From assembly GCA_963514005.1 (NCBI GenBank), contig OY740791.1, positions 51,026,001-51,090,000 on the forward strand: a stretch of DNA of 64,000 nt, read 5' to 3'. Source of the stretch: Raja brachyura. Its lineage: Eukaryota. Below are positions 2,755-60,093 of this stretch, in pieces (position 1 is the first letter of the stretch; every line of letters starts with the position of its first letter). Below the pieces are notes generated by a model. That model was not told where the DNA came from. It saw only the letters and a program-made list of their open reading frames with translations, and made no database searches. A program made the translations under genes and the position numbers.

Positions 2755-3425
2755 ATATAAGAGTCATACAGCAGAGCAACTGGCTCTTTGGCCCAACTTG
2801 TCCATGCTGGCCAAGATGCCCCATCAAGGCTAGTCCCATTTGCCCATATTTGGCCTAAATTCCTCTAAAGCTTTCCTATCCAGGTACCTATCTGAGTATC
2901 TTTTAAATGCTGCTATAGCACATAATTCAACTAGCTCCACTAGTCTGAAGAAGGGTCTCGACCCGAAACGTCGTCAATTCCTTCTCTCCATAGATGCTGC
3001 TTCACCCGCTGAGTCCCTGCAGCATTTTTTGTCTAGCTCCACTAGCAGCTTGTTCTAGAGGCCAACCACCTTTTGAGTGAAAATTCTGCCTCTCAGGCTC
3101 CATTTAAATCTTTCCCCTCTTGTCTTAAACTTATGTTCTCTTGTTCTTGATTCCCCAACTCTAGGTAAAAGACATAAAATGCAGGAGTAACTCAGCGGGA
3201 CAGGCAGCATTGCTAGATATCTTTGTATCTATCTTCAGTGTAAACTATCCTCTATATTCCTACATATTTTGTCTGGGGAAAAGACTCTGTCCAGTCATAC
3301 TATTTATTCCTCACATGATTTATACACCTCTTTAAGACCACCCCTCATCCTCCTGCTCTCCAAAGAATAAAGTCCAAGCCTGCCCAATCTCCCCCTATAG
3401 CTCACTCAAGCCCTGGAGTCCTGAA
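2755..3425 (-). mobile_element. CR1 LINE 3' fragment interrupted by Penelope terminal fragments
   Basis: Degenerate CR1 3' end similar to 18210-19040; ctgaagaagggtctcgacccgaaacgtc insert at about 2945. Confidence 0.7.
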
Positions 3426-3563: not shown

Positions 3564-4415
3564 AAAGGTACATATGTACAAAGGTACAAAGGTATTTATT
3601 GGTCACGTACACCAATAGGTGAAGTGAAATGTTTCTTGCCAATGCAGCACATAAAAAAGAATACAGACAACAATAATAGAGAGATTTCTAAACACAAAAA
3701 ACTTCCCCCCACAATGGTTCCCATTATGAGGGAAGGCACAACGCCCAGTCCCCATCCCATGTCCTCCCATAGTCAGGCCTATTGAGGCCTCCGCAGTCGC
3801 CTTCACGGAGGCCCGATGTTCCAGGCCGTTCCCGCCGGGTGGTGGTGCCCCAGCGTCGGGAGAATCCTCTCAGCGGCTTGGCACACCTGGAACGGCCGCT
3901 TCCTTACCGGAGTCCGCGGCTTCCAAAGCCAACAAGGCCGCGCTGAATGGAGCTCCCCTCCAATGGCTCCCGATGTTGAATTCAGCGCCGCCGCCCGCAG
4001 CTGGCCGCTCCACAGACCCGCGGCTCCGCGATGTTTTTTTTTTGTCGGTGGTTTCAGCTCACCGGAGTTCCAACGCGGTGACCCAGGCAAGGGATCGTCC
4101 GCTCCGCCCCGCGATGGGCTCCAGCGCTGCGCCGCTGCCGAAGCCGAGGTTCAGGGCAGTCTCCTCAAGAAACGCCACTTCAGGCCCGCTGGTAGGCCAC
4201 GAGGACGGGTCAAAGATGCAGCCCGGAGAAAAGCTGCCTCTCCGACCAGGTAGGGACCAGGAAAAGTAGTTTCCCTCTTCCCACCCCCCACCCCCCACAT
4301 AAAAAAAGAATAAACTCCAAACAAAATACTTGAACTCACTAAAAAATTGTTTAAAAGAGTGAAACACAGACAGCTGCAGGCTGGGCAGCCATACCATACA
4401 GGACAGCGCCCCCTA
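3564..4415 (-). mobile_element. GC-rich non-autonomous non-LTR retroelement (bipartite type)
   Basis: Minus strand: 5' ggggcgctg head, T-rich and G-rich tracts, GC-rich core, 3' hairpin (cacc-tatt-ggtg), AATAAA and short-repeat tail. Confidence 0.65.
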
Positions 4416-6645: not shown

Positions 6646-9558
6646 CAAGGCCAGCCTTAAGCCGATTGGACCGATTGCTCCCAATTGGGCCCCGCGAGTC
6701 AGGGGGGCCCACGCCAAAGTAATTTACTCTTGGCTCGGGTAGATCTACCCTGGGTGGAGGGGGGAGAGAGGGGCGGAGAGAGAGTAGAGGGATGGAGGGG
6801 GAAGAAAGGGGTAGACTGGGAGGGGGGTGTGAGGGGGAATGGAGAAGGGGAGTGGGGGAGGTGGGTCGTTCGCTCACGGCAGCGCTCCCGCCCCTCCAGT
6901 CACCTTGCTTCATGCACACAGCCCGGCTCCACCCAGTCTCTCCCCAGGGAGACGTGGAGAACAATACACGGGCCGGGCCGGGGGTTGGAGTAACGTTTAC
7001 AAACATCGGCCTCAGCTCACACCCGTCCGCCCGGACCCCGGCATCCGCTCCTGCCGCCGGCCCTCTCCCTCCCTTCTCTCCTTCCCTTCTTCCATCCCTC
7101 CCTTCTCTCCTTCCCTCCCTCCTCTCTTTTTGTTCTTCTCTCATTCACTCCATCCCTTCTTTCACTCCTTCCCTCCGTCATTTCTCTACTTCCCTCCCTC
7201 CCTTCTGTCCTTTCTCCCTTACACACATAACACACAGACAACTAACACACACAACCCAAAGGGTAGGATCAGGGGGCTGAAGCACAAAATGTAATGCCTG
7301 GACTGATTTTTCAGCAATGGTTTAAGAAGGAACTGCAGATGCTGGAAAATCGAAGGTAGACAAAAGTGCTGGAGAAACTCAGCGGGTGCAGCAGCATCTA
7401 TGGAGCGAAGGAAATAGGCAACGTTTTGGGCCGAAACCCTTCTTCAGACCCTTCCTTCGCTCCATAGACGCTGCTGCACCCACTGAGTGTCTCCAGCACT
7501 TAATTAAATTACTTTTTTTTTCATTTCAGTCACTAAAACAGTATTGTAACTATGTACTTTTCAGAGGTGATCTACCCATTTTGTTTGTTACTTGTAGCAG
7601 GGCTGCCAACTCTCACGCATTCAGCGTGGGACTAACGCATTTTGAGGAATTCTCACACTCTCACGTTGATGACAGAAGTTCTCACGTTTAAAAAAATAAT
7701 TAAATAAATAAAGTCAGACTTCACCACACTCACCAATGAGAATAGTTTTTTGTCGGCGGGTTCCCCGTAAAGAATGTCCAAATTGGCTTAAGCCCATCGC
7801 ACACTATTTAAAATGGCAATGTAGACAAAAATGCTGGAGAAACTCAGCAGGTGCGTATCACTTCGAAGAAAGATTTGATAACTGGGATTGTATTCTCTGC
7901 AGCAATGGAGGTGAAGAAAATACTTAGTTGAGGTGAATAATATTATGAGAATAGGACCTGTTTTGCTTAACAAAGACTGTAAGAAGGAACTGTAGATGGT
8001 GGTTTAAACTGAAGATAGACACTAAAAGCTGGAATAACTCAGCAGGACAGGCAGCATCTCTGGACAGAAAGAATAGGTCATGTTTCGGGTTGAGACATTC
8101 AGACTGAAGAGGTTGAAAACCAGCCAAAAAGTATAATGACTGGAGATGTGTGTTATCCAACTAAGGGCAGAAATCAGATTCATGTGTTCAACTTTATTGA
8201 CATGACGCCATAATAAATATAGTACAGAAAAATAATTTAATGGGTGGCACGGTGGCGCAGTGGTGGAGTTGCTGCCGTGCAGCACCACAGACCCCGATTG
8301 GATTCTGACTACGGGTGCTGTCAGTACAGTATTTGTACATGCATCATTTTTCCAGCATCTGCAGTTCCTTTAACACTTTGTCTACTCCACTGCGAAATCT
8401 CCTCAAGGTATGCCTATGAAGAAGTTCTCCTCCTCCCTCCAGAGACAGTTTCACAACCTCCTCTCTAATTGCCCCCCCTATTTGATTCCCCCTTCCCTCC
8501 AACTCTTCTCCCCTTCCTACCTCTCCCTCAGCCCTTGGGCTCTTCCTCCTCCTTTTTCCTTTCTTCCACCCGCCTCCCCCCACCCCCCATCAGTCTGAAG
8601 AAGGGTTTCGGCCCAAAAAGTTGCCTATCTCCTTCACTTCATAGGTGCTGCTGCTCCCGCTGAGTTTCTCTCAGCATTTTGTGTACCCAGTATATGTTCA
8701 TTCTCCTTATGACCATATGGTTTTCTCTGGATATTCCGGTTTCTCCCACATCCAAAGGAAGTGCAGGTTTGTAGATGAATTGGCTTCTGTAAATTGTGCC
8801 TGGCATGTAGGATACAACTGGTATATGGTAGATTGCTGGTCGGTGTGGCTTTATGGGTCGAAAGGCCCGTTTCCATATATATTTTACATATATCTTAATT
8901 TCATTGAACTATATATGGTTGAATATGTGGCATTATTTCCGTCTTGTTTCTATAGTCAAAGGGTAAGGTTGATTGATTTATTTGTGCAGAACAGTGATGG
9001 AAGTCTAACTCCGCTTGCCTTGTTTCTATGTTTTTGTTTCTCTCTATATATGCGTAACAGCATGAATTATAATCTGATTTCCGTACATGAATATACTAAG
9101 GTATATGTGCTGCACCTGTTGATAAGAGCCTGGCTCTACTGTGGAATGTAATTAGGAATGAAGTTTAGCCTAACCTTATTCATGCCTAATCCAATTTGAA
9201 GCATAAATGTTGCATTCAAGTGTAAGTTAAAAGACTCGCTACAGTATGTACCAGATTGCACAATTTCAAGCTGAAAACTGCCAAAGCTCCTTACCGTGGT
9301 GGGGGGACACCCCCCTCCCACACCTGCCCCCCCTCAGTCGCTCCACTCCCTCACAAGTTCTCACTCTCAACCCTCACCCAATGTTGGCATCCCTGCTTGT
9401 AGGCTTACATGTATGCAATTTAATATTTAAATGTAGCTTAGATCTGTTTGCTCCATTAAGTCAAATGCATTTCTATGAATCTACAGACCTTGGCTGGGAA
9501 CCTGGGTCTCACCAAGATTGTTCCCAATTGGGCCCCGCACATCCTAAGGCCGGCCCTG
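6646..9558. mobile_element. Putative hAT (Tip100-like) non-autonomous DNA transposon with nested insertions
   Basis: Ends caaggccagccttaag and cctaaggccggccctg are inverted; gattgYtcccaattgggccccgc occurs near both ends; 8-bp flanks match only 5/8. Confidence 0.55.
7598..9395. mobile_element. hAT-like non-autonomous DNA transposon (CAGGGCTGCCAAC TIR)
   Basis: TIRs cagggctgccaac / gttggcatccctg; cttgtag directly flanks both ends; ctcac-rich subterminal repeats. Confidence 0.8.
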
Positions 9559-16387: not shown

Positions 16388-17575
16388 AATTGAATTGAAT
16401 TGAATACCTTTATTGTCATTCAGACCTTTCGGTCTGAACGAAATTTCGTGCCTGCAGTCATACATATATAAAAATAACAATACAATACCATACAATAAAC
16501 ACAAAATTAACATCCACCACAGTGAGTTCACCAAACACCTCCTCACTGTGGTGGAAGGCAAAAGTCTTAGGGTCTCTGTCTTTTCTCCCCTCTGCGCTGA
16601 GGGGATCCAGGCCGCCGCCACCGCTGACGCCGGAACGCCGCCACAGGGCCCGCCGCCGGAACGTCGCTGGAGCAGCGCAGCTCCCGAAAGCCAGGCCGCC
16701 GCTGAAGCACCGCAGCTCCCGGAACCCAGGCCGCTGCTGGAGCACCGCAGCTCCCGAAACCCAGGCCGCCGCTGGAGCACCGCAGCTCAGAGAGAGCCAG
16801 GCCGCCGCTGGAGCACCGCAGCTCCCGAAACCCAGGCCGCCGCTGGAGCACCGCAGCTCAGAGGGAGCCAGAACCGCCGCTGGAGCACCGCAGCTCCCGA
16901 CACCCAAGCCGCCGCTGGAGCACCGCAGCTCCCGACGCCCAAGCCGCCGCTGGAGCACCGCAGCTCCCGACACCCAGGCCGCCGCTGGAGCACCGCAGCT
17001 CCCGACACCCAAGCCGCCGCTGGAGCACCGCAGCTCCCGACACCCAAGTCGCCGCTGGAGCACCGCAGCTCCCGACACCCAAGCCGCCACTGGAGCAACG
17101 CAGCTCCCGACACCCAAGCCGCCGCTGGAGCACCGCAGCTCCCGACACCCAGACCGCCGCTGGAGCACCGCAGCTCAGAGGGAGCCAGGACGCCGCTGGA
17201 GCACCGCAGCTCCCGACACCCAGACCGCCGCTGGAGCACCGCAGCTCCCGAAGCCCAGGCCGCCGCCGGAAGCCAGGTCGCCACTGGAGCTCTGAAGGCC
17301 GTGCTGCCGCCGCTGGAAGCTGGAAGGCCGTCACCAGGGCCTCAGCACAGACGGAGACGTTGTCGGGGGACACGACAGGAAAAGTCGCATCCCCCCGAAG
17401 GGAGAGACTAAAACCCCGTTTCTCCCACCCTCCCCCCCCCCCCCCCCCACACACATACACAGCCCGACAAACCAAAAATAAACACCAAAAACAGGGACGA
17501 GGACAAAAATAAAATAAAAGACAGACGGACTGCAGGTGAGCCGCAGCTGACAAGCAGCGCCGCCACTCCGAACTG
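16388..17575 (-). mobile_element. GC-rich non-autonomous retroelement with internal 35-bp minisatellite
   Basis: Head gtggcggcgctgc...gctgcggctcacctg shared with 59117; 3' hairpin ttcagacc-gaaa-ggtctgaa, AATAAA, (attca)n tail. Confidence 0.8.
16663..17320. repeat. 35-bp GC-rich minisatellite (about 18 units)
   Basis: Unit gccgccgctggagcaccgcagctcccgacacccaa. Confidence 0.95.
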
Positions 17576-18208: not shown

Positions 18209-19040
18209 AACATAGAAACATAGAAATTAGGTGCAGGAGTAGGCCATTCGGCCCTTCGAGCCTGCACCGCCATTCAATATGATCATGGCTGATCATCCAA
18301 CTCAGTATCCCGTACCCGCCTTCTCTCCATACCCTCTGATCCCCTTAGCCACAAGGGCCACATCTAACTCCCTCTTAAATATAGCCAATGAACTGGCCTC
18401 AACTACCCTTTGTGGCAGAGAGTTCCAGAGACCCACCACTCTCTGTGTGAAAAAATTCCTTCTCATCTCGGTCCTAAAGGACTTCCCCCTTATCCTTAAG
18501 CTGTGACCCCTTGTCCTGGATCTCCCCAACATTGGGAACAATCTTCCTGCATCTAGCCTGTCCAACCCCTTAAGAATTTTGTACGTTTCTATAAGATCCC
18601 CTCTCAATCTCCTAAATTCTAGAGAGTATAAACCGAGTCTATGCAGTCTTTGTTCATAAGACTGTGCTGACATCCCAGGAATCAGTCTGGTGAACCTTCT
18701 CTGCACTCCCTCTATGGCAACAATGTCCTTCCTCAGATTTGGAGACCAGAACTGCACGCAATACTCCAGGTGTGGCCTCACCAAGACCCTATACAACTGA
18801 AGCAGCACCTCCCTGTTCCTATACTCAAATCCTTTTGCTATGAAAGCTAACATACCATTCGCTTTCTTCACTGCCTGCTGTACCTGCATGCCTACTTTCA
18901 ATGACTGGTGTACCATGACACCCAGGTCGCGCTGCATCTCCCCTTTTCCTAATCGGCCTCCATTTAGATAATAGTCTGTTTTCCTATTTTTGCCACCAAA
19001 GTGGATAACCTCACATTTATCCACATTATACTGCATTATA
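18209..19040 (-). mobile_element. Young 5'-truncated CR1 LINE (RT C-terminus, 244-aa open frame)
   Basis: ORF 18302-19036 (LYRVLVRPHLEYCVQFWSP...LRGDLIETYKIL); tttctatg tail; ctgagtta duplicated at both ends. Confidence 0.95.
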
Positions 19041-19097
19041 CTGAGTTACTCCAGCTATTTGTGTCTATATTCAATTTAAACCAGCATCTGCAGTTCC

Positions 19098-24095: not shown

Positions 24096-25122
24096 CAGAT
24101 AGTATGCAACAAAAAAGCTTTTCACTGTACTTCTGTGCTAATGACAATAAACCAAATTAAACTAAAATTAAACAAAACTAAATTTAGTTTATTACTAGAC
24201 TAAGTGGGACCCATTGGGGCCCTGTCACATGGGAGGCCTGGTCCCCCAACGGAACCTGTTCCCCAATACAATATTCCACCACTCACCCATTCCCCCAATG
24301 CAATCAGTCCCCCAACACAATATTGCACCACTCACACATAGCCCTCAACTGCGCAGGCGCGGCACATTTCCCCTCATCCCCCAGCACTCTCTCCTTCTCC
24401 TTTTCCGTACCCTCAGTCATGCCCTCCCTCCCTCCATCTCCTCTCCCCTCCCTAACCCCCTCCTATCCCTCTATCCTCACACCTCACCCCCCTATCCCCC
24501 CACTATCCCTCCTGACCTGCCCCACTGCCCTCATCTCCCTCTATTCCCCACTCTGTACCAGCCCCACCCCCTCATCTCCCTCTATTCATTCTCTTCCCCC
24601 ACTCTCCTCACCTCCCCCACTTTTCCCCTCTCCCTCCCTACCCATTTCTCTCCCTCCTCACCTCTCCAGGATCTCTCCCCTTTCCTCCTCTCCTCCCCCA
24701 ATCCCTCCCTTACCTCTACCTCCCTCTCCTTTCCCCCACCATCAGTCACTCCCTCCCTCCCTCCATCCATAAAAAACAACATCAGCAGTTCCTTCCTCCA
24801 CAGGTCATTCATTGTTAGCTGTGGTTTAGATCCCGTTGACTTGACTATTGGACCAGTTTGCATTGTGTGTGTGTGTGTGTCTGTGTGTGTGCATGTCTGT
24901 GAGTTCCTCAAACATTGTGCAAACTGATCACCATCTTGCAACCCGACCCTCGCTCACGCCCTCTGCCCACTCCGTCCTGTCCGACCGCCCGATGCTGCCA
25001 CTCGGCCCATCCCTGACCTGCCCGCCCGCCTGCTGCTGCCGCTCGGCTCAGCTCAACCCGCCCTTCCCACCCACCTACCTGCCTGCCTGCTCGCCGCCGG
25101 GTAGTGGGAGGGGTGGGGAAGG

Positions 25123-25180
25123 ATGGAGTCGGTGTTGGTCATGGTGGGCACCATGAACTTCGATGACCTGGTGTGGAAGA
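25123..25180 (+). pseudogene. ALG13: ALG13-like first-exon fragment (MESVLVMVGTMNFDDLVWK)
   Basis: Resembles the ALG13 N-terminus as recalled (MKCVFVTVGTTSFDDL); both T>M changes fit ACG>ATG CpG decay; cut at an hAT-like TIR. Confidence 0.6.
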
Positions 25181-26565
25181 CAGGGCTGCCAACATTGGGT
25201 GAGAGTTGGGAGTGAGAAATTGCAAGAGATCAAGCCCGAGGAAGCCTAGCCGAGGTGGTGGGGGGTGGGGGGTGGGGGGGGGGGGGGGGGAATTTCTGTT
25301 CCAATGCTCCCCATTCTCAATTACTTTTACATTGAAGTGATTGAAATCCAAGTGAAGTTTAAATGGCGTCAGAAAAATAAAACCTCCGGAATGGATGATA
25401 TTCATTACGTGGTTGGTTGGACTCAATATCATCACAATTACTCAATTAAACTTTGAATCTTCAGATTTCCTGGTTCAAGCTAAAACTAAAGACAAATAAT
25501 AACCTCCTCACACATTCCCTGCAAGTATCTCTGTCACTGCTTTAAAATATTCCCCTTCTTTGAACAAGCTCTTAAACATCGCATCCGAACCAGTTTCCAT
25601 CTGATTACATTCCTTGAGGATGTTCAACTACGTGTCCAATTAATAAAACAACGAGATTGGGGACATTTCTATTCAACCTGTCAAAGGAATTTGGGGGGGG
25701 GGGGGGGGGGGAGATAAGAAATAGTCAGTAAGGTAAACAGACATAATAGTTGAGTGGCAAATGACAATAGTGCTACCTTCCCAATATTTAATTACGGAAA
25801 TAATGGGTTATTGGGGCTGTATGTTGTAACAGACAGCCTGACACCTTGCATGTCATTTTAATATTACACTTACCCAAACCTCCTGGACATTCTGGATTAA
25901 TAAATTAAGGTTTTGTCAACTAATTAAAATTAGGATAATTACAAATCAATATCATTAGCCAACTCTGAAATACAAAACACTGAGCATTGGGATCCAGACA
26001 TCACGGACAACTGGCCGCAGTTCCCCACTCACACCTGGCAGTGCTCTCTGTCTGAACCAGGGACCATGGAGCGTTTTTGAAAGTGGGGAGGCTGAGCGAT
26101 CACTGACCACTGGCCTTGGGGGTACCTGACCAGGGAGTGGAGCAACTGAGTGGGGGGAGGGTGTGGAAGGGGGGTGGGACTTTTTGAAATGTGATGTGTT
26201 AGAGCATTGTAGAAGTATGATTTCAATGCTTTTTGTTTGAAGTATCATTAAGAGGTAACATTTTAAGGGGTAACATTTTCCACACAAAGGGTGGTGGGTG
26301 TATGGAATAAGCTGCCAGAGGAGGTAATTGAGGCAGGGACTATCCAAACAGTTAAGAAACAGTTAGACTGATACATGGATTAGACAGGTTTGGAGGGATA
26401 TGGACCAAAAGCAGGTAGCATAGCTGGGACATGTTGGCGGGTGTGGGCAGGTTGCGCCAAAGGGCCTGTTTTCACCCTGTATCACTCGATGACTACATTA
26501 TACTTCCATCATGCATGAATGCTTCAAAATCAAGTGGTCGCGTTTTATTGCCACATACTCAAGCA

Positions 26566-26905
26566 TAGAAACATAGAAAATAAGTGCAGGAATAGGCCAT
26601 TTGGCCCTTCGGGCCAGCACTGCCATTCAATATGATCATGGCTGTTCATCTAAAATCAGTACGTTTTTTTCCTGTTTTTTCCCCGTATTCCTTGATTTTG
26701 CTAGCCCTAAGAGCTAAATGTAACTCTCTCTTGAAAACATCCAGTGAATTGGCCTCCACTGCCTTCTGTGGCAGAGAATTCAACAGATTCACAACTCGGC
26801 GTGAAGAAAGTTTGTCCTCATCTCAGTCCTAACTGGCCCACCCTTTATTCTTAAACTGTGACCCCTGATTCTGAACTCCCCCAACATCGGGGACATTTTT
26901 CGTGC
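26566..26905 (-). mobile_element. CR1 LINE 3' fragment
   Basis: catagaaacatag tail; PMLGEFRIRGHSLRIKG; another CR1 piece lies at 26260-26490 (+). Confidence 0.85.
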
Positions 26906-27011
26906 AGTTACAGTATGTGAAAATCTAGCAGGCAAGCAGGATGCTTTCTCCAACCACCCCGAGTTGAAGACCACTTTCTTCCACCATTTCTACCTGGTAC
27001 TTGGTACTTAC

Positions 27012-27158
27012 TTCCTGCAGCCACTTGTTGTCCCCCAGGATGCACCAAGCCGCAGCCTGATCCATGCCGGTCACCTGGGCGAATTCAGCACAGAGACTCT
27101 CACAGCAGAGACGCAACGCTTCCGATCGCCCGGGACTCTTGCACTGAGGCTGCTCCAT
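27012..27158 (-). pseudogene. TDP2: TDP2-like first coding exon (UBA-like N-terminus) with splice donor
   Basis: gccATGg start, 49 codons (...SLCAEFAQVTGMDQAAAWCILGDNKWLQE), then GTAAGT; resembles TDP2 LCVEFASVASCDAAVAQCFLAENDWEME as recalled. Confidence 0.6.
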
Positions 27159-27911
27159 GGCCGGAGCTGCAGTGAGCGACTCGCCAGCCCGGCAAACACT
27201 CGCCAGCCCTGCAAACACACGCCAACCCCGGCTCCCCGTTCGCATCTGCCGCCGCATGCTGCTTCTGCTTCCATCCCTCCCTCAGCCCCGGCTGACCAAC
27301 ACCCACAGCCCATGCAATTGATATGAGTTTTGAAATTTTGGTTGATCACAGAATTTCTCACGACAGAGCGTGAGAAATTTGTGATCAGTGTGAGAATTTG
27401 TCGAAATGCGTGAGTGTCACGCTCGATGAGGAGGGATGGGTAGACTGGGCTGCCATTGTTGCAGAGGGTGGACGTGGGAAAGGGGTGAGTGATGAGGGAA
27501 AGAGTGACGGGACCAGGGCCTCCACTGCGTATCTCCTGAACCCCCCCGCAGCCGCTGCCGGTGGTGGGGAGACTATAGACAAGTTACTGTGAGGAGGGGA
27601 GAGAGGAGTTTGTGAGTGAAGCGGGAAATGCACCACTGACGGGGCAGGAAGGGGCGTCGCCAACCCAGCCATGGCATTGACTGACAGGAGAAGAGACCAA
27701 TCTGCATGGCGCGGACTGCAGGAATCTGTGCATGCGCGTTCTTAAAGATTTTAAAACCTCGATAACTTTTACAATACACCACCGATCAGAACAAAACTTG
27801 TTGCACCCGCAGTACAGGAAAACGGCGAGTAATCTGGTGAAAGATTGTAGTGCTATCGCGTACGGTTTATACGCAATAGAAAAATCTCGCAAGCCGGAAG
27901 AGAACAAAATC

Positions 27912-27914
<3 letters not shown>

Positions 27915-28000
<86 letters not shown>
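27915..28000 (+). repeat. (GACA)n microsatellite at the Helitron 5' end
   Basis: About 21 perfect units. Confidence 0.98.
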
Positions 28001-28009
28001 TAGATGTAA

Positions 28010-28318: not shown

Positions 28319-30404
28319 TAAGTTTGTTTGTTGTGAGGTTGTATTTATGTGTCAGTAAAGCTGCAATTAGAATTGCATAACTCCGATCCTGGTTCATGTG
28401 ACAATTAAGAATTCTTGACTCTTAAATGTGAGGAGAAAAGAAGACAAAACATAGCATAGTACAGCACAGGAGCAGGCCCTTCACCAGCCTGGCAAACACG
28501 CGCCAGCCCGGACAACACACACCAGCCCCAGCTCCCTGTCCGCATCTGTCTGGGCCGAACATAATGCCAAGACCAACTCTTATCTGCCTGCGTTTAATCT
28601 AATCTTCCCAATGCCTGCAGATCCATATGCCTATCCAAAAATGTCTTAAGTGCCACTATCATATGTGCCTCAACCACCACACCCAGCAGCGCGATCCAGG
28701 TACTCACCACCCTCTGCCTAAAACAAAATCTGCCCCCAAGCTTCCTTTAAACTTTGCCCCTCTCACCTAAAAGCTATGAACTCTACTATTTGATTTTATT
28801 CCATCCTGGAAAAAAGATTCTAACTGTCTCTCCTATCTATACTTCTATCAGGTGGGGGCGGGGGGTGGGGGGGGGGGGGGGGATTGGGTTTGGGGGAGGG
28901 ATAGGGGGGAGCAACAGAACTGCATTGTGAGCCGACATAGATTTGATGGTCTAAAATGTCTTCCTTCTCTGACATAGTTAACTATGGAAATTCAATCACT
29001 CACTTCCAGACGCAAACATGAATTTTGTTTACAACATTCCCTCTAATTATGTACTCAATCTTCTGATTATTCACTGCACAAAGAGATGTATCCAACCTGC
29101 ATTCTTTGGTAAAGATCTCATATCGACACCCATTAATCTTCAAGTGGAAATAGTGTGTCTTCTGCTATTGTTTTAAACTGGCTATAATTACTTTGAAATG
29201 ATAAAGGATTGAAGGCTGCTCTAACTGGGGTGCTAAAAATGATAAAATAATCCTCAAGGGAACAAAGAGGGGTGTGGTGGGGGTGCTGAGAACAAAGAGG
29301 GAACCGGCAGAGGGGGGTGGTGGGGGAGGGGGGGGTGTGGGGGGCAGTGGTGGCATTGAGATCAAAGAGGGACAAATGGAGGGGGTTGTCAAGAAAGAGG
29401 AGAAGGTGGCAGGCGGAGGGGCAGCCAAGAGCAAGGAGGGATCCAGTGGAATAAGGGGGGGGGGGGGAGGAGGGGTGTGGGGGGAGCACCTAGGACAAGG
29501 TTAGACCTGGATCATCAGGATTCTAATGATTACTTTTGTAACTTTGTCGACGACAGAGACATGGCGACTCTTTGCATTCGTTATGCATTGTAGGCATTAC
29601 TAAAGAATTTCAATGTACCAAGGTAAATGCAACAATAATGTATCATTGAATCATTGAAGGGAAGATTGGTGGTGGAGGCAGATACGACAGGGATATGGAT
29701 CACATGCAGGCAGCTAAGATCAGTTTAACTTGACATCAAGTTCGGCACAAACATTGTGGGCCGAAGGGCCTATGCCTGTGCTGGACTGTTCTCTGTGCAA
29801 TGTTCTAAGATAAAGAAGATGGGGGGGGGGGGGAATGAGATAGTATGAAACTAGAGTTTGACCTTTGAGAGCAAAGTAGGGAAAAACGTCCTCACATAGG
29901 AATAGAAAATGTCTATCAATCGTCCCTTCAAAATAGATTTGGGTCTATTCAAAATCCTGGGTCAATTGGGCATCTCAAGATAAAGATCGGTCAATGTGTC
30001 GGCAAGATGGGATCTGGGTCAAAGGTTGGAAATGAAGTTAAAGTAGCGATTAACTGAGATACAACTGACAGACAGAATAGACTTCAATGTCTCAATAACT
30101 CACACATATTTCTGTGTTCTTTGCAACACCAACAATAACATCAACTTCACATATGACAGCCATAATGCAAGAAACTGTTCAAATGTCACTTCAGGGTAAC
30201 ATTTTCAAACAATGAAGTTGACACTGAGTGACATGGAGGGGGATCAGAAAAGACAGTTGATAGCCAGGTCAAAATGATATGATTCAAGGAGCATTTTTAG
30301 AAAGGAAGGTAGTATTATGAACAGATCAAGACATGGCTTTTCCAGCCTTGGGCTTTGGCAGCTGAAAGTGCAGCCGCTGAAAGTGCAGCCACCGCTAGAA
30401 CCTT

Positions 30405-32955: not shown

Positions 32956-34546
32956 ATGGCTGGTAGTAAGCAGGTACGACCTAACGTGCCTCGCACACCA
33001 GTGAGGGCTACTTCCCCTCTTTTACAGGTCCCCAGAGGGCAGACCCGGGGAAGAGCTGCGCCGAAGTCGAGCCCCGCAGCAGCGGCAGGCATCGAGAAGC
33101 CGCCGGAGAAACCTGCCAGATTGCAGGCCGGCGGCAGAACTGCTGGAGAGTCGAGGAGCCCTGCAGGAGCAGGAGGTACCTGCATAACACCGGAACAGGC
33201 TGCCGGAGCGCAGACCGGTGGCAGCAGATTTCGGTCGGGCAGCCCCGCTGAGGTGGGTAGCGACGACCATGCACCGTCACACACCCGTGTGGTCAGAAGT
33301 GGCGGTAAACCCGCGCGGACATCGGGGAGCCCAGCTACGGGAGCCGGCACCGACTCATCCCCGCTGCCTTCCCATCAGGCAGGGGGACCGCTACAGTCCG
33401 AACGACGGCGGACTAGCGGCATGTCCGCGCGGGAGTCGTACGGCCCTGCAGGAGCGGCAGCCGACGACTACCTGCCAGCGGACCCTTGTCATCACCTCGA
33501 CGAGGTGCGGTTCACTGGTAGAAGCCCCAATGTTTCAGGAGAACCTGGGGAAGTCGACTTGTCCTCAGCATTTAGCGGCGGCGGTCGCATGGCCAGGATG
33601 GAGCTTATGGTGGAGCAACTACTCCAGCGAAACCTGGATCGACAAGAGCGTGGGTCCCAGCGGTCTAGGAGCCAGATCATGCGGCCGCCTAGCATCTCCT
33701 TCATCCGCCGGCAGTGCTAGAAGCCAGCAGATGGCTGACTTTGATGAAGAGGCCGTGATAGAAGAGCTCACTGCTCCGGAACCAGAAGATGATCTGCTGG
33801 ATGTAGTTTCAAAGTTTGCTAAGCCTGTACGTTCAGGGAAACCGCTGCACCCTAAACTGGCGGCGAGCATCAATTTTCTGGCCACACACCAGCTCCAAGA
33901 CCAGGTACTCACAGACCCTATAGAGAAGTACAAGGCTCCGGAGAATTGTGTTACCCTGAACGTCCCAACTGTCAATGGACCTATCTGGGGGAACATCAGT
34001 CCCAGTATTAGGGCACAGGAGCTCAAAATTCAGAAAATCCTGAAACTGTTGACGTCGGGCATCACGGCATTCGCCAGGACTCTCGATGGGGCTAATGTAA
34101 CCGAAGAGCAGCAGGATGCTCTTGCCCTACTGTGCAACATGCAGATTGAAATCAACTGCTTTCGGAAAAGCTCCATCCGGCCCACCCTCAACCCAAAATT
34201 CGCTGGGTTGTGTCCTACCTCCACCACACCACCACCAAGACAGCTGTTTGGGGAGGACCTGCCCAAGCAGGTCAAAGAACTAGATGAGGAAGCCAAAACC
34301 GTGGGGCTGATGAAACCACCATCATCATCTAGGGTACAGGCATACCGAAGACCACAGCATTATCCTACCTCCAAACTTCGGGGTCAGCCGGATAGGGCAC
34401 CAAGAACTTATCCGCCGACCACTCCCCAACAGCATAAGCCTTTTTTAGGGCAGGGCCAGCAGAAGCCCGCATGGAAAATGCGGCAACAGCCCTACCCAGC
34501 AACACAACGGCCTCCGAAACCACAACACACCAGGCCCCGCCTTTAA
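32956..34546 (+). CDS. DIRS ORF1 (gag-like), probably one ORF broken by a frameshift near 33700
   Basis: Overlapping ORFs 32956-33720 and 33218-34546; PENC..LNVPTVNGPIW and LFGEDL motifs typical of DIRS ORF1; position upstream of RT. Confidence 0.7.
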
Positions 34547-34548
34547 CC

Positions 34549-36452
34549 ATGGAGGTAAGGGGGTCTGGTTCTTTCAAGAAAGTAGCAATTGCAACTTCAC
34601 AAGTAGGAGGACGGTTGCGGGCATTTTGGGGTGCATGGGGTGCTATAAGTTCAGATCCCTTTATTCTACAAAGTATTCAGGGTTATGTAATAGAGTTTAT
34701 TAATGGGAAACTTCCCCCTATGCAGCATGTACCTCATCGCAAGTTTGCGCTCTCTCAAAAAGAGATAGACATGTAGAAATTTTAAGGCTGGCAGCCAAAG
34801 GGGTGATAGAAAAAACGACACATGAACCTCTTGAGTTTGTGTCCAACATTTTTACAAAAACTAATAAAAATGGTGGATGTCGGATTATCATAGACCTAAC
34901 CCATCTGAATACTTTTGTACAATATACCCATTTCAAAATGGAAAGTTCGAAACGGATAAACAGCTGATTACTCAAGGGTACTTTATGGCCTGCATCAATT
35001 TAAAAGATGCATACTATACAGTCCCTATTATAGAGCATCACAGGAAATTCTTAAAATTTGTCTGGAGGGGTCAATTATGGCAATATAAAGCCTTGCCCAA
35101 TGGAATTACAACAGCCCCTAGGCTATTTACAAAAATTATCAAATCTATTTTGATGTCCCTTAGACAACAAAATTATATTGTCATGGCATACTTGGACGAT
35201 ATATTAATAATGGGGAAAACACTTGAATTGGCTGAGCTGGCAGTTACAGCAACCAAATTATTATTCGAGACATTAGGGTTTGTCATCCATCCAGACCAAT
35301 CCAAGTTCACCCCATCTCAAGTTATGGTCTACCTGGGATTCACTATTAACACCAACCAAATGATTGTCACTATATGGCAAAGCATTAGCCATAAAAGAGG
35401 CATGCAACAGCCTTGCTTGCGCCAGGGTGCCGACCATCAGACATGCTGCTAAGGTGATTGGGAAACTCGTAGCTACATTTCCAGCTGTGCAATTCGGGCC
35501 ATTAATTTATCAAAATTTACAAAGAGCAAAAATGTCAGCATTAAAATCAAATGCTGGACATTTTGACAGATCGACATATGCAGCTGCCGATCAAGGCTAA
35601 AATTGAGCTATGATGGTGGGCTAACAATATTAGTGAGTGTTACAAGCCCATCATTATCTGCAACCCATGAGTCGTGTTACAAACCTACGCTAGCGCCCAA
35701 GGCTGGGGAGCAACTGACACCACGTCCAGTTGTGGTGGCAGATGGGATTCTCACAAGTCCACTCTTCTTCAGTCACAAGGAATAAACAATTTGGAGATGC
35801 TAGGAGCTTTTCATGGGCTGCGGGCATACTGCACAAACTTACATCATACGCATGTCCATCTTCAAATAGATAATACCACGGTGGTGGCTTACATAAATCA
35901 TATGGGTGGTATCAGGTCAGTATCTTGTGAAGAATTGGTAAACACAATTTGGCTCTGGTGTATTGAAAGAAATATTTGGATATCAGCAACCTACCTTCCA
36001 GGGAAGTTCAATACAGTGGCGGACACCAGGTCACGAGTATTCAATAACATTCAATAATATTTGCTGACATTATAGCTAAATTTGGTACACCAGATATCGA
36101 CCTTTTTGCGTCTAGGTTGAACCATCAGATACCAACATATGTGTCTTGGGAACCAGACCCTGGGGCAGTAGCAATGGATGCATTTTCTCTCCATTGGGGG
36201 AAATGGTTCTGCTATGCATTTCCCCCATTCTGCCTCATCAGTCGGGTATTGCAGAAAATTGAACTGGATTCTGCTTCAGGCATTCTGATCATACCTGACT
36301 GGCCTACACAACCATGGTACCCGGTGGTCCTCCATATGCTAAAAATTCCGTGGGTACAAATTGCTAAAACCCCCAATTTGATCACAAACCCCATTACTAG
36401 GGAAATTCACCCGTGCCATGGTCACTTAAACCTGTTGGCTTGCAGGTTCTAA
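34549..36452 (+). pseudogene. DIRS RT / RNase H / methyltransferase-like ORF, disrupted
   Basis: VGGRLRAFWGAW, INLKDAY (D>N), YLDD, LQTYAS (D>Y), INNLE, IDNTT, NTVAD, IDLFASRLN, YAFPPF; several stops and frameshifts. Confidence 0.93.
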
Positions 36453-37399
36453 GGAGGCCACTATTGGAGACTGGCATATCACCCAGGGCCATGGACCTCA
36501 TCACAGCATCGTGCAGGGCATCTACCAGAAAGCAGTACCTCACCAAGATCAGGAAGTGGGAGGCCTACTGCACACGAACAAATACAACCTACAACTCTGC
36601 CATGATACCTGATGTCCCGGAATTCCTCGTGGGCTTTCATTATGACGAGGGTCTCAGTTATAATGTCATCAATAGCGCCAGGAGTGCGTTAACCTCATAC
36701 TTCAACATTGGTGTGGGCTCACACCAATTGGTGTCCAAATTTATGAGGGGTGTATTTAATACCAACCCTCCACGACCCAGATACAACATCACCTGGGATA
36801 TAGGAGTAGTGTTGAACCTACTGAGAAGCTGGTCCCCCATGACAGGGTTACCGCTCGATAAACTCACCCTCAAAGTGGTGATGTTGATGGCACTGACCAC
36901 AGCACAGCGGGTACAGACCTTGCAAAAACTACAACTCGACAGAATGGTCTTGACCCCTGAGAAGGTAACCTTCTTCATAGAAGAGAAGCATAGACCGGGA
37001 TCTACAGGGCTGCAGCTGGAATTCCGGGCATACCCCACTGATGCCACCCTCTGCATAGCCACCCATCTCTGGTATTACATCAAGGCCACATGCACCATCC
37101 GGAAGATGGAGCAGGGACTCCTTATCAGCCACAATAAACCACATCACCAGGTGACTGTGCAGACTATCGCCAGGTGGCTCAGGGTGGTGTTGGGTGCAGC
37201 AGGAATAGACACTAACATTTTAAAATCTCATTCTACCAGGGCTGCATCCACATCAGCGGCGAGGACCATGGAGGTGCCCATGGATCATGTCCTCGCTACC
37301 GCGGGCTGGGCCAGTAAGACCACTTTCCAACGCTTCTACAATAAGCTGGTGGCCACCCCCACAACGTTTGTGGAAGCAGTGCTGAGAGCCGTTCCATAA
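36413..37399 (+). CDS. DIRS tyrosine recombinase (open 328-codon frame)
   Basis: Catalytic R (AQRVQ), HSTR, W (AGW), Y (RFY); overlaps the end of the RT/MT frame. Confidence 0.93.
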   Translation: MPWSLKPVGLQVLRRPLLETGISPRAMDLITASCRASTRKQYLTKIRKWEAYCTRTNTTYNSAMIPDVPEFLVGFHYDEGLSYNVINSARSALTSYFNIGVGSHQLVSKFMRGVFNTNPPRPRYNITWDIGVVLNLLRSWSPMTGLPLDKLTLKVVMLMALTTAQRVQTLQKLQLDRMVLTPEKVTFFIEEKHRPGSTGLQLEFRAYPTDATLCIATHLWYYIKATCTIRKMEQGLLISHNKPHHQVTVQTIARWLRVVLGAAGIDTNILKSHSTRAASTSAARTMEVPMDHVLATAGWASKTTFQRFYNKLVATPTTFVEAVLRAVP

Positions 37400-56245: not shown

Positions 56246-56895
56246 ACATAGAAACATAGAAAATAGGTGCAGGAGTAGGCCATTCGGCCCTTCGAGCCTG
56301 CACCGCCATTCAATGTGATCATGGCTGATCATCCAACTCAGTATCCCGTACCTGCCTTCTCTCCATACCCCCTGATCCCTTTAGCCACAAGTGCCACATC
56401 TAACGCCCTCTTAAATATAGCCAATGAACTGGCCTCAACTACCTTCTGTGGCAGAGAATTCCAGAGACTCACCACTCTCTGTGTAAAGAATGTCTTCCTC
56501 ATTTCGGTCCTAAAGGAATTCCCCCTTATCCTTAGACTGTGACCCCTTGTTCTGGACTCCCCCAACATCGGGAACAATCTTCCAGCATCTAGCTTGTCCA
56601 ACCCCTTAAGAATTTTGTAGGTTTCTATAAGATCCCCCCTCAATCTTCTAAATTCCATCGAGTACAAACCGAGTCTATCCAATCTTTCCTCATATGAAAG
56701 TCCTGACATCCCAGGAATCAGTCTGGTGAATCTTCTCTGTACCCCCTCTATGGCAAGGATGTCTTTCCTCAGATTTGGAGACCAAAACTGTACGCAGTAC
56801 TCCAGGTGTGGCCTCACCAAAACCCTGTACAACTGCAGTAGAACCTCCCTGCTCCTATACTCAAATCCTTTCGCTATGAATGCTAACATACCATC
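56246..56895 (-). mobile_element. Young 5'-truncated CR1 LINE, same subfamily as 18209-19040
   Basis: Open frame nearly identical to 18302-19036; tttctatg tail. Confidence 0.95.
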
Positions 56896-57854
56896 GTTGG
56901 TTAATCGGTGAGCCAAAGGGGCTGTTTCTGCACTGTATCTTAAACTAAACTAAACTAAAAAGTGCAATGACATTACCATCACCAACCGATCTCATGGAGG
57001 ATAACATTGACCAAGAAAAGTGGCAATTCCATTCTTTTGGCAAATGGATGAGAAAAGGAAAGTGAATCTCCTGTCGGCAATTGGTCAAACCTATCAGTGA
57101 CTTTACACACACACACACAGGCAACTCTTAAGTGGAATATGAGAAGTCCTAGCCGATCAAAGATAACATTAAAAGTCACTGTCCTTGACTGCTAAGCCCA
57201 CATTATGTGAATGAATTTAAACAAAAAATTAAAATTCTTCCCCTGTGGTGCAGAAATCCTATTATAACAAGTAGCCTCATTTCAGAAAGAAAGTTCTTAG
57301 TCATTGATTCTGCCAGCAATCTTGTTCATGCACCATCTACGTTGATGTGCATGTGGACCACATTTCTGAAGGATAACACATGAAGAGGCTGCCTCCCTTA
57401 GAAGTGTCTGTTCGATGAAACCTTCTTCATCCCCGACTGAGTTTGATAATGTGGATGCACAAAACTTCAGCTCCCGCTTCTGATAAAATTACCTGTCTCT
57501 TTCAGCTTTGTACTGAAAGGCTTGTGCTAACCTCAAAGGATTAATTGGTTTAGATGGAACTCTGACTGAGCTTATTGCATTATTAAAAATGACTTGCTGA
57601 CTCGAAGAGAAAGAGCCTGCAGGTTGCACAAAGGAGTGTGTAACAAAATATCTCACCAAGGCAAAGGCTGGTGGAGTGCCCGTTCTTATTTCTCGCCAAG
57701 GGGACCTGATGAATAATCCATGTGGAGCAACGGACAAAACAAAACAAAATGTATTGACGTTCCCATACGTGATCTGGCTTTCTAGGAGCTGATGTGCTTT
57801 ACACCTCCTGGTCCGTTCTTTGAGAGAGCTGTTAATCCGAGAAAGATGTTTTTT

Positions 57855-59116: not shown

Positions 59117-60093
59117 GTAGTGGCGGCGCTGCCTGGCAGCTGCGGCTCGCCTGGAGTCCATCTGTTTTTTTCTTTTCTTTTTTTTTTCTTGTGTCTGTTT
59201 TAGTTAAATTTTAGTTTATTCGGTAGTGTATGTGTGGGGGCGGGGGGGGGAGGGTGGGAGGAACAAAGTTTTAGTCTCTCCGTTCGGGGGGATGTGACTT
59301 TTCTTGTCGCGTCCCTGCCACCGTCTCCGTCTGTGCTGAGGCCTAATGGTGGAGCTGACGGCCTCGGAGCTGTGGCGGCATTCCAGCAGCGGAGGCAGAC
59401 CTGTCTTCAGAGCTGTGGTGTTCCAGGGTTTCCAGCGGCGTTCCCGCTGTGGTGTTCCAGCGGCGACTCTGCTTCAGAGCTGTGGCGGCATTCCAGCGTT
59501 CCAGCGGCGGTGGCGGCGGACGCGGCTTCAGAGCTGTGGGTGTGGCGTTCCAGCAGCAGGCCTGGCTTCACAGCTGTGGAGGTGTTCCAGCGTTCCGGCA
59601 GCAGACCCGGCTTCACAGCTGTGGAGGTGTTCCAGCGTTCCGGCAGCAGAACCGGCTTCAGAGCTGTGGTGTTCCAGCGTTCCGGCAGCAGACCCGGCTT
59701 CAGAGCTGTGGTGTTCCAGCGTTCCGGCAGCAGACCCGGCTTCAGAGCTGTGGTGTTCCAGCGTTCCAGCGGCGGAACCGGCTTCAGAGCTGTGGCACGG
59801 TTCCAGCGTTCCGGCGACGGCGGTGGCGGCAGCCCGGCTTCGGAGGCTCGGCCGCTGGCCTAGTGGATGACAACATCGGAGGCCTGGATCGCCTCAGTGT
59901 AGAGGAAGAACAAGGAGGGAAGAAGACAAAGACTTTAAGATTTTTGCCTTCCATCACTGTGAGGAGGTACCTGGTGAATATGTGTTTATTGTGTGTTTTG
60001 TTTTTTATTATATGTATGACTGCAAGGCAACAAAATTTCATTCAGACCTTTTGGTCGGAATGACAATAAAGGATACTTTGACTTTGACTTTTT
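59117..60093 (+). mobile_element. GC-rich non-autonomous retroelement with 42/45-bp minisatellite, inserted in a SINE
   Basis: Head and tail homologous to 16388-17575; (tttgac)n tail; host SINE resumes at 60094. Confidence 0.8.
59365..59845. repeat. 42/45-bp minisatellite
   Basis: Unit cagacccggcttcagagctgtggtgttccagcgttccggcag. Confidence 0.9.

What the first reader, a model, noticed from the sequence alone, without database searches (positions are those of the whole stretch)
27006..27310. Orphan TDP2-like exon 1 with Kozak ATG and intact GTAAGT donor inside nested transposons
Seen: gccATGg, 49 open codons, phase-0 donor. Recalled homology: the UBA-like N-terminus of TDP2 (5'-tyrosyl-DNA phosphodiesterase). 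Odd residues (CC for RR, M for T, W for R) are each one CpG>TpG change from the expected codon, which suggests a methylated dead copy. The retained donor implies DNA-level capture, not retrocopying. It lies within the hAT-like ends, so either element may have carried it. No second exon was recognised downstream.
Basis: partly seen in the sequence, partly recalled or inferred. Interest (0 to 1): 0.7.

Follow-up and report, generated by a model that had tools for sequence, protein, structure and literature searches.

The report
TDP2 exon riding two nested transposons
The first exon of the DNA-repair gene TDP2 sits inside one transposon that sits inside a second one, and it occurs in more than 1,200 scattered copies in this fish genome; the two transposons likely spread it in relay and the copies are likely dead passengers, but that copy number is unusual for cut-and-paste transposons of animals.

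Summary
The exon is real and comes from TDP2, but it is not a lone orphan. The intact seven-exon parent lies on another contig (C2). The window holds one of at least 1,289 copies (about 1,700 estimated) of a ~1.1-kb TDP2 piece (upstream region, exon 1, start of intron 1). The piece sits in an inner TIR element that also occurs free-standing (5-bp target duplications in 10 of 14). One inner copy landed in another repeat (empty site found 532 times). That stretch is carried by an outer TIR element (6-8-bp duplications in 32 of 52), which accounts for about 85% of sampled copies. The flanking third repeat is only a landing site. Copies decay neutrally (dN/dS-like 0.92, p=0.45; CpG decay 18-22%). 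The GTAAGT donor is derived: the parent has GTAGGT. The exon lacks the end of the UBA domain. No transposase partner was found, and splicing was not tested. Verdict: a multicopy Pack-TIR, a new variant by scale (at most 5 copies in the vertebrate cases I read) and by its two-carrier relay; probably functionless.

The parts
27012..27158 (-). TDP2 exon-1 coding core, 49 codons; encodes only the first part of the UBA domain
   Evidence: parent G000:C2:140267905-140268084
27006..27011 (-). 5' splice donor GTAAGT; parent and older subfamilies have GTAGGT
   Evidence: GTAAGT in 45 of 58 W copies; GTAGGT in 20 of 28 inner, 9 of 14 O, 6 of 7 X copies
27159..27310 (-). TDP2 5' part of exon 1, with upstream ATG at 27274 that is in frame in the parent and out of frame here
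26266..27005 (-). TDP2 intron-1 piece, including repeat fragments already present in the parent intron (LINE/SINE labels recalled)
   Evidence: blastn to parent 76% over 26580-27209 and 86% over 26266-26487
26058..27314 (-). Inner TIR element (family ends CATGGGCCGCGGAAC ... TCCGCGGCCCCTG), shortened here; free copies are about 1.9 kb with 5-bp target duplication
25181..27428 (-). Outer TIR element (13-bp TIR CAGGGCTGCCAAC; intact TIR at 25181-25193, the other lost); about 1.08 kb internal deletion against full 3.3-kb copies
24194..28005 (.). Host repeat (3,288 candidates; Helitron/Helentron-like by recalled end features) interrupted by the cassette; about 55-60 bp of it deleted at the 27428 junction; not a carrier

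Best explanation
The window holds one of at least 1,289 copies of a TDP2 piece (upstream region, exon 1, start of intron 1) nested inside two non-coding TIR elements, which likely spread it in relay by cut-and-paste transposition, and the copy is likely a dead passenger. Step 1 (structure shown, repair mechanism inferred): an inner element took up parent -401 to +722 around the exon end, likely by gap repair or template switching, and moved by itself, leaving 5-bp duplications. Step 2 (shown by empty sites): one inner copy inserted at a GTTCA site in a third, palindromic repeat. Step 3 (order inferred): an outer element took up that stretch and multiplied it far more, leaving 6-8-bp duplications. 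Step 4 (shown): deletion subfamilies arose, and the largest (W, which includes the window copy) changed GTAGGT to GTAAGT and L to Q. Step 5 (shown): this copy landed in a host repeat, lost one TIR in a junction deletion, and decays neutrally with CpG loss. The transposases were supplied in trans (inferred; not found).
For: Parent with 7 exons and no outer TIR in 37 kb. Copy number 1,290; 30 of 40 copies picked without using the exon match that pattern, which gives about 1,700. Free inner elements: 0 of 30 have outer sequence, 22 of 30 have the exon, 10 of 14 with both ends have an exact 5-bp duplication. Four long inner loci examined keep GTAGGT or a one-base variant in three cases and reach +672 to +722 into the intron; 7 of 28 inner copies keep a 24-bp exon stretch of the parent that the outer subfamilies lack. 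The empty site predicted beforehand occurs 532 times, control 0, and L085 keeps the 5-bp duplication on both sides. Outer element: of 52 with both ends, 15 have 6-bp, 15 have 7-bp, 2 have 8-bp and 1 has a 5-bp exact duplication, 19 none. Neutral decay: ratio 0.92, p=0.45, in 31 of 33 copies picked without the exon; net frameshift in 10 of 31 exons against 12 of 31 intron windows of equal length. Star-like tree with a W clade at 96/97.
Against: No transposase shares either set of ends among 70 of 150 scored hAT-domain loci, so the superfamily and the helper are unknown. The order of steps 2 and 3 rests on 0 of 12 empty-site loci having an outer TIR within 1.5 kb. The parent groups with full-exon inner copies at only 81/75, and the bootstrap had not settled. 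The all-copy ratio is slightly under 1 (0.88, p=0.065; 0.90, p=0.13), and 50 of 94 copies still have an open core with GT, so weak constraint on a minority is not excluded. Samples are top hits and lean to young copies. 19 of 52 outer and 4 of 14 inner elements have no exact duplication.
Confidence: 0.85

Rival explanations
1. The cassette is a mobile promoter-plus-first-exon module. Some copies would start transcripts and splice from the strengthened GTAAGT donor into downstream host exons, or would make small RNAs against TDP2. The window copy may or may not be among them.
For: It carries a CpG-island-type 5' region (parent CpG o/e 0.92, GC 70%; window copy 0.78). The largest subfamily changed to the consensus donor. 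50 of 94 copies keep an open core with GT. Pack-TIRs are often transcribed and chimeric (PMC8277862, abstract and Discussion).
Against: Neutral substitution and frameshift pattern; CpG decay 18-22%. W copies lost the upstream parent stretch (-401 to -345), and the upstream ATG is out of frame in 21 of 29. A search for longer proteins returned no chimera: 2 hits among 2 candidates, a weak test. The exon lacks the Phe62 equivalent and helix 4 needed for ubiquitin binding (PMC5137425 passages). One founder mutation explains the donor.
Confidence: 0.1
2. A single carrier (the outer element, or the flanking Helitron-like repeat) captured the exon, and the apparent inner element is a by-product.
For: About 34 of 40 exon-picked copies are of outer type; 29 or 30 of 30 exact inner 3' ends are nested.
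Against: Free inner copies have unrelated flanks, their own 5-bp duplications, a 480-bp segment missing from outer copies, and more parent sequence. 0 of 11 host-repeat copies hold the exon.
Confidence: 0.04
3. It is the true TDP2 exon 1, a retrocopy, or an exon of another UBA gene.
For: The Pfam hit alone is generic: UBA_4, E=0.022, below cut-off.
Against: The parent with exons 2-7 is on C2; intron sequence is retained; nucleotide identity to the parent spans the upstream part, exon and intron.
Confidence: 0.01

Closest known systems
Multicopy Pack-TIRs of animals (Tan et al. 2021, PMC8277862; e.g. CAPSL 5' UTR in hAT-N8_XT, Ssk-FB4)
   Same: Host gene piece with intron between TIRs, unlinked parent, distinct target duplications, GC-rich 5' cargo.
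   Different: That survey found 4 multicopy cases among 370 in 100 genomes; the examples I read have 3-5 copies. Here there are at least 1,289 copies, two nested carriers with different duplication lengths, several subfamilies, and older copies (76-88% to parent, below their 90% cut-off).
HelibatN3 carrying NUBPL in Myotis (PMC4224331, passages)
   Same: Same cargo type (promoter, 5' UTR, first exon, partial first intron) at about a thousand copies in a vertebrate.
   Different: That carrier is a rolling-circle Helitron. Here the carriers have TIRs and target duplications, and the Helitron-like repeat is only the landing site.
Pack-MULE / Pack-TYPE elements of plants (as cited in PMC8277862; PMC8903248 seen as search listing only)
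   Same: Non-autonomous TIR elements that carry and multiply gene fragments.
   Different: Animal host; short 13-15-bp TIRs; 5-bp and 6-8-bp duplications.
hAT5 / hAT6 / hAT7 groups (PMC12730594, passages)
   Same: 5-bp (inner) and 6-7-bp (outer) duplications; short TIRs beginning with CA.
   Different: No linked transposase found. The outer family mixes 6 and 7 bp equally, with some 8 bp, whereas those groups are named for one length each.

Membership tests
Pack-TIR (multicopy) | TIRs on both sides of the captured sequence | tested here: met
   Inner: both ends in 14 of 30 loci. Outer: both ends in 52 loci. The window copy itself has lost one outer TIR.
Pack-TIR (multicopy) | Internal host sequence with an identifiable parent not flanked by the element | tested here: met
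   TDP2 at G000:C2:140.27-140.29 Mb; no outer TIR match in 37 kb; inner-element ends absent at both breakpoints.
Pack-TIR (multicopy) | Intron retained (not a retrocopy) | tested here: met
Pack-TIR (multicopy) | Distinct target-site duplications at different loci | tested here: met
   10 of 14 inner and 32 of 52 outer (6-8 bp), each at a different locus
hAT superfamily | Fixed duplication of 8 bp (5, 6 or 7 bp in hAT5, hAT6, hAT7) | tested here: inconclusive
   Inner fits hAT5 (all 10 exact duplications are 5 bp). Outer is mixed: 15x6, 15x7, 2x8, 1x5.
hAT superfamily | Autonomous partner with a hAT transposase and the same ends | tested here: inconclusive
   0 of 70 examined hAT-domain loci share the ends; 150 of 1,667 candidates were scored. 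No transposase domain in 87 element ORFs. Other superfamilies (P, MULE) were not searched.
hAT superfamily | Short TIRs with subterminal repeated motifs | tested here: inconclusive
   13-bp outer TIR; in L035, 7 of 10 TCTCAC/GTGAGA motifs lie within 200 bp of an end; one element, no control.
TDP2 (functional gene) | Complete UBA domain with the Phe62 equivalent and helix 4, plus the catalytic domain | tested here: not met
   The exon ends before LNSYF; nothing else of TDP2 is in the window.
Helitron capture | Cargo travels with the Helitron ends, without TIRs or target duplications | tested here: not met
   0 of 11 host-repeat copies hold the exon; the cargo travels with TIRs and duplications.
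Functional Pack-TIR chimera | Transcription and splicing from the copy | not tested
   One search did not cover the exon; no read data on the exon were obtained.

The most novel reading that the evidence does not exclude
A two-transposon relay turned TDP2's CpG-island first exon into a mobile promoter-and-donor cassette. The subfamily with the strengthened GTAAGT donor then seeded new first exons or alternative promoters at some of 1,300-2,600 sites in skates: the first thousand-copy coding Pack-TIR of a vertebrate, moved by an outer transposase with variable 6-8-bp cuts.
Probability: 0.15. Interest if true: 0.78.

Novelty: new variant of a known kind. Interest (0 to 1): 0.5.

Why it matters
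The one animal-wide survey I read found TIR-mediated gene capture almost always single-copy and independent of transposition, and thousand-copy capture of a first exon in vertebrates was reported for bat Helitrons. This family shows cut-and-paste-type elements doing the same, and it preserves each step: parent, free inner element, empty site, outer element, deletion subfamilies. That makes models of capture (gap repair against template switching plus transposition) testable. The mixed 6/7/8-bp duplication points to a transposase worth finding. In practice, well over a thousand false TDP2 exon-1 hits can confuse annotation, primers and read mapping in skates.

Tried and rejected
Transposase partner: 30 plus 40 hAT-domain loci share no ends; their hits were poly-C or common repeats. 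L035 looked like the parent at first, but it has both outer TIRs and a 6-bp duplication. I expected the empty site to lie in cargo-free outer elements; it lies in a different, palindromic repeat (0 of 12 with an outer TIR), so I changed the order of events. Pfam on 87 of 133 listed ORFs of the sister subfamily, outer cargo and inner element found only the UBA exon as a meaningful match (two unrelated weak hits below cut-off), so no second captured coding exon is shown. Public runs: 20 of 23 rows hold 0.06-0.38 of the words, under 9 organism labels plus a metagenome; this may come from TDP2 itself or common repeats, so it is not counted as evidence. One search was laid on L034:300-3900 and missed the exon (end at 4174). 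It shows only that contigs of organisms B and I cover element-internal sequence and that one contig of organism I spans the inner/outer junction at 3206. The runs' RNA status is a guess, so nothing follows on expression. Earlier scan findings: none. A literature search on the TIR string found nothing relevant. No folding was run: the exon is an incomplete domain.

Full report
Observation. The - strand reads gccATGg at 27158, 49 open codons and GTAAGT at 27011. The only solved-structure match is the TDP2 UBA chain (E=0.0012); Pfam gives only UBA_4 below cut-off. A sister copy retrieves little-skate TDP2 (78%). The catalytic exons of this genome's TDP2 match that protein at 83-98%, so the host is a skate-like fish (inference). 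Against the W-subfamily consensus the window copy has one 9-bp deletion and 8 single-base changes in the exon; 4 are CpG transitions (2 silent, R>C, R>W) and 4 are not. M and the first C are parental.

Parent. Searching with the full protein finds exons 2-7 only at G000:C2:140.27-140.29 Mb and over 100 exon-1-only hits elsewhere (113 of 1,905 candidates scored). All 7 exons have normal splice sites and a stop. The parent donor is GTAGGT and exon 2 starts in phase 0. An in-frame ATG lies 78 nt upstream, matching the longer Amblyraja model; in the window it is out of frame. The window matches the parent upstream, through the exon and about 630 bp into intron 1, including repeat fragments that are already in the parent intron. 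Capture was therefore at DNA level.

Copy number. The 451-bp region has 2,637 candidates; the 39 non-self hits among 40 scored are 84-89% identical over nearly the whole length. A 34-mer across the exon end matches 1,290 places with at most 2 mismatches, control 0. Of 40 exon-bearing copies picked without using the exon, 30 match that pattern. That gives about 1,700 copies, probably an underestimate.

Outer element. Copies end sharply at CAGGGCTGCCAAC TIRs with unrelated flanks. Of 52 elements with both ends, exact duplications are 6 bp in 15, 7 bp in 15, 8 bp in 2, 5 bp in 1 and absent in 19. The 5' 33-mer matches 1,124 places at one mismatch or fewer. Only 6 of 40 loci picked by that end carry the exon; most are a 2.2-kb sister subfamily with other cargo. 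The family's own sequence is about 90 bp at one end and 360 bp at the other, so the rest is cargo.

Inner element. Among 40 exon-picked loci, 24 are W type (like the window), 2 O type (longer 5' part), 3 have a split exon, 5 are other outer copies and 6 have no outer sequence. The last group is a 1.9-kb element with ends CATGGGCCGCGGAAC and TCCGCGGCCCCTG. A segment unique to it has 521 candidates. Of 30 such loci, 0 have outer sequence, 22 have the exon, and 10 of 14 with both ends have an exact 5-bp duplication. It holds parent -401 to +722 around the exon end, mostly GTAGGT (20 of 28), and in 7 of 28 the parent's longer exon. In outer copies the inner element is followed by GTTCA. I predicted the empty site and found it 532 times, control 0; L085 keeps the duplication on both sides. 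Against my expectation, 0 of 12 empty-site loci had an outer TIR within 1.5 kb; they belong to a third, palindromic repeat. The likely order is capture by the inner element, insertion into that repeat, then uptake and larger amplification by the outer element. The order of the last two steps is inferred.

This copy. Outer element 25181-27428, inner 26058-27314, and a 1.08-kb internal deletion against L034. The flanking repeat (24194-28005; 3,288 candidates) has the two flanks about 50-65 bp apart in the copies that show both, and none of 11 holds the exon. A junction deletion thus removed about 55-60 bp of the host repeat and about 21 bp of the element, which explains the missing TIR and duplication.

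Evolution. Copies differ from their subfamily consensus by 18-22% at CpG sites (79-87% TpG/CpA) and 4.8-6.8% elsewhere; the window copy differs at 11 of 59 and 29 of 603 sites. Consensus against parent: exon 6-9 of 156, intron 40-47 of 390. In copies picked without the exon (31 of 33 kept after coverage and identity filters) the N/S ratio is 0.92 of neutral expectation (p=0.45), with net frameshifts in 10 exons against 12 equal intron windows. All copies: 0.90, p=0.13 (94 of 100 kept) and 0.88, p=0.065 unfiltered. A tree of 44 rows (the parent and 43 of the 100 classified W/O/I copies) is star-like, with W plus L035 as a clade (96/97) and the parent only weakly with full-exon inner copies (81/75; bootstrap not settled). 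The exon stops before the aromatic residue and fourth helix that PMC5137425 (passages) reports as needed for ubiquitin binding. The TDP2 identity of the cargo is therefore probably incidental.

Class. 5-bp and 6-7-bp duplications occur in hAT5, hAT6 and hAT7 (PMC12730594, passages). No hAT-domain locus among 70 examined shares either end, and 87 element ORFs show no transposase domain. The elements look like hAT derivatives; membership is not shown.

Literature. PMC8277862 (passages and Discussion): 370 Pack-TIRs in 100 animal genomes, 4 multicopy, examples of 3-5 copies; no occurrence of 'TDP2' or 'shark' in the main text. PMC4224331 (passages): a bat Helitron amplified NUBPL promoter, first exon and partial intron to a thousand copies. 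Searches (listings only, apart from the four papers named) showed no report of a TDP2-carrying element. Repbase, Dfam, subscription journals and the papers' supplements were not seen and may hold this family or larger multicopy cases.

Verdict. A real, well-resolved multicopy Pack-TIR relay; new in scale and nesting, probably without function. Expression and splicing remain untested. Interest 0.5.

Noticed in passing
window 7598-9395: A sister member of the outer TIR family without TDP2 cargo, with both TIRs and a 7-bp duplication CTTGTAG. This 2.2-kb subfamily is the majority of TIR-picked loci; its GC-rich cargo has no meaningful Pfam hit and its source is unknown.
   Followed up: partly
L098, L101, L107, L122, L187, L189, L192: A subfamily in which the TDP2 exon is split by another insertion (about 2 kb with a short CAGGC duplication in L107) that was then amplified with it.
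   Followed up: partly
L168, L171, L172, L179, L184, L205: A subfamily with a duplicated 5' part: a second internal copy of the outer TIR and a partial extra exon.
   Followed up: partly
L248-L259: A palindromic repeat family with long inverted arms that holds the empty GTTCA site; at least 532 matches.
   Followed up: partly
G000:C2:140267905 and P0004/P0005: The W subfamily has FAQVT like Leucoraja and Amblyraja TDP2, whereas the own parent and older subfamilies have FALVT: reversal, old allele or gene conversion; unresolved.
   Followed up: partly
window 33188-37399: DIRS-like retroelement: long ORF, reverse transcriptase (PF00078) and tyrosine recombinase (PF00589) frames on the + strand; the DIRS label is recalled.
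   Followed up: no
window 18302-19045 and 56338-56949: Related LINE-like 3' fragments (label recalled); the same repeat family as the piece in TDP2 intron 1.
   Followed up: no
window 16627-17282 and 59539-59793: GC-rich tandem arrays of 35-bp and 42-bp units, open in several frames.
   Followed up: no
window 28481-28550: A 70-bp stretch 80-90% like the 5' part of the TDP2 cassette, outside the element.
   Followed up: no
L144, L150, L153, L154, L163: Several hAT transposase frames of 683-793 aa are still open in this genome; their ends are unrelated to this family.
   Followed up: partly
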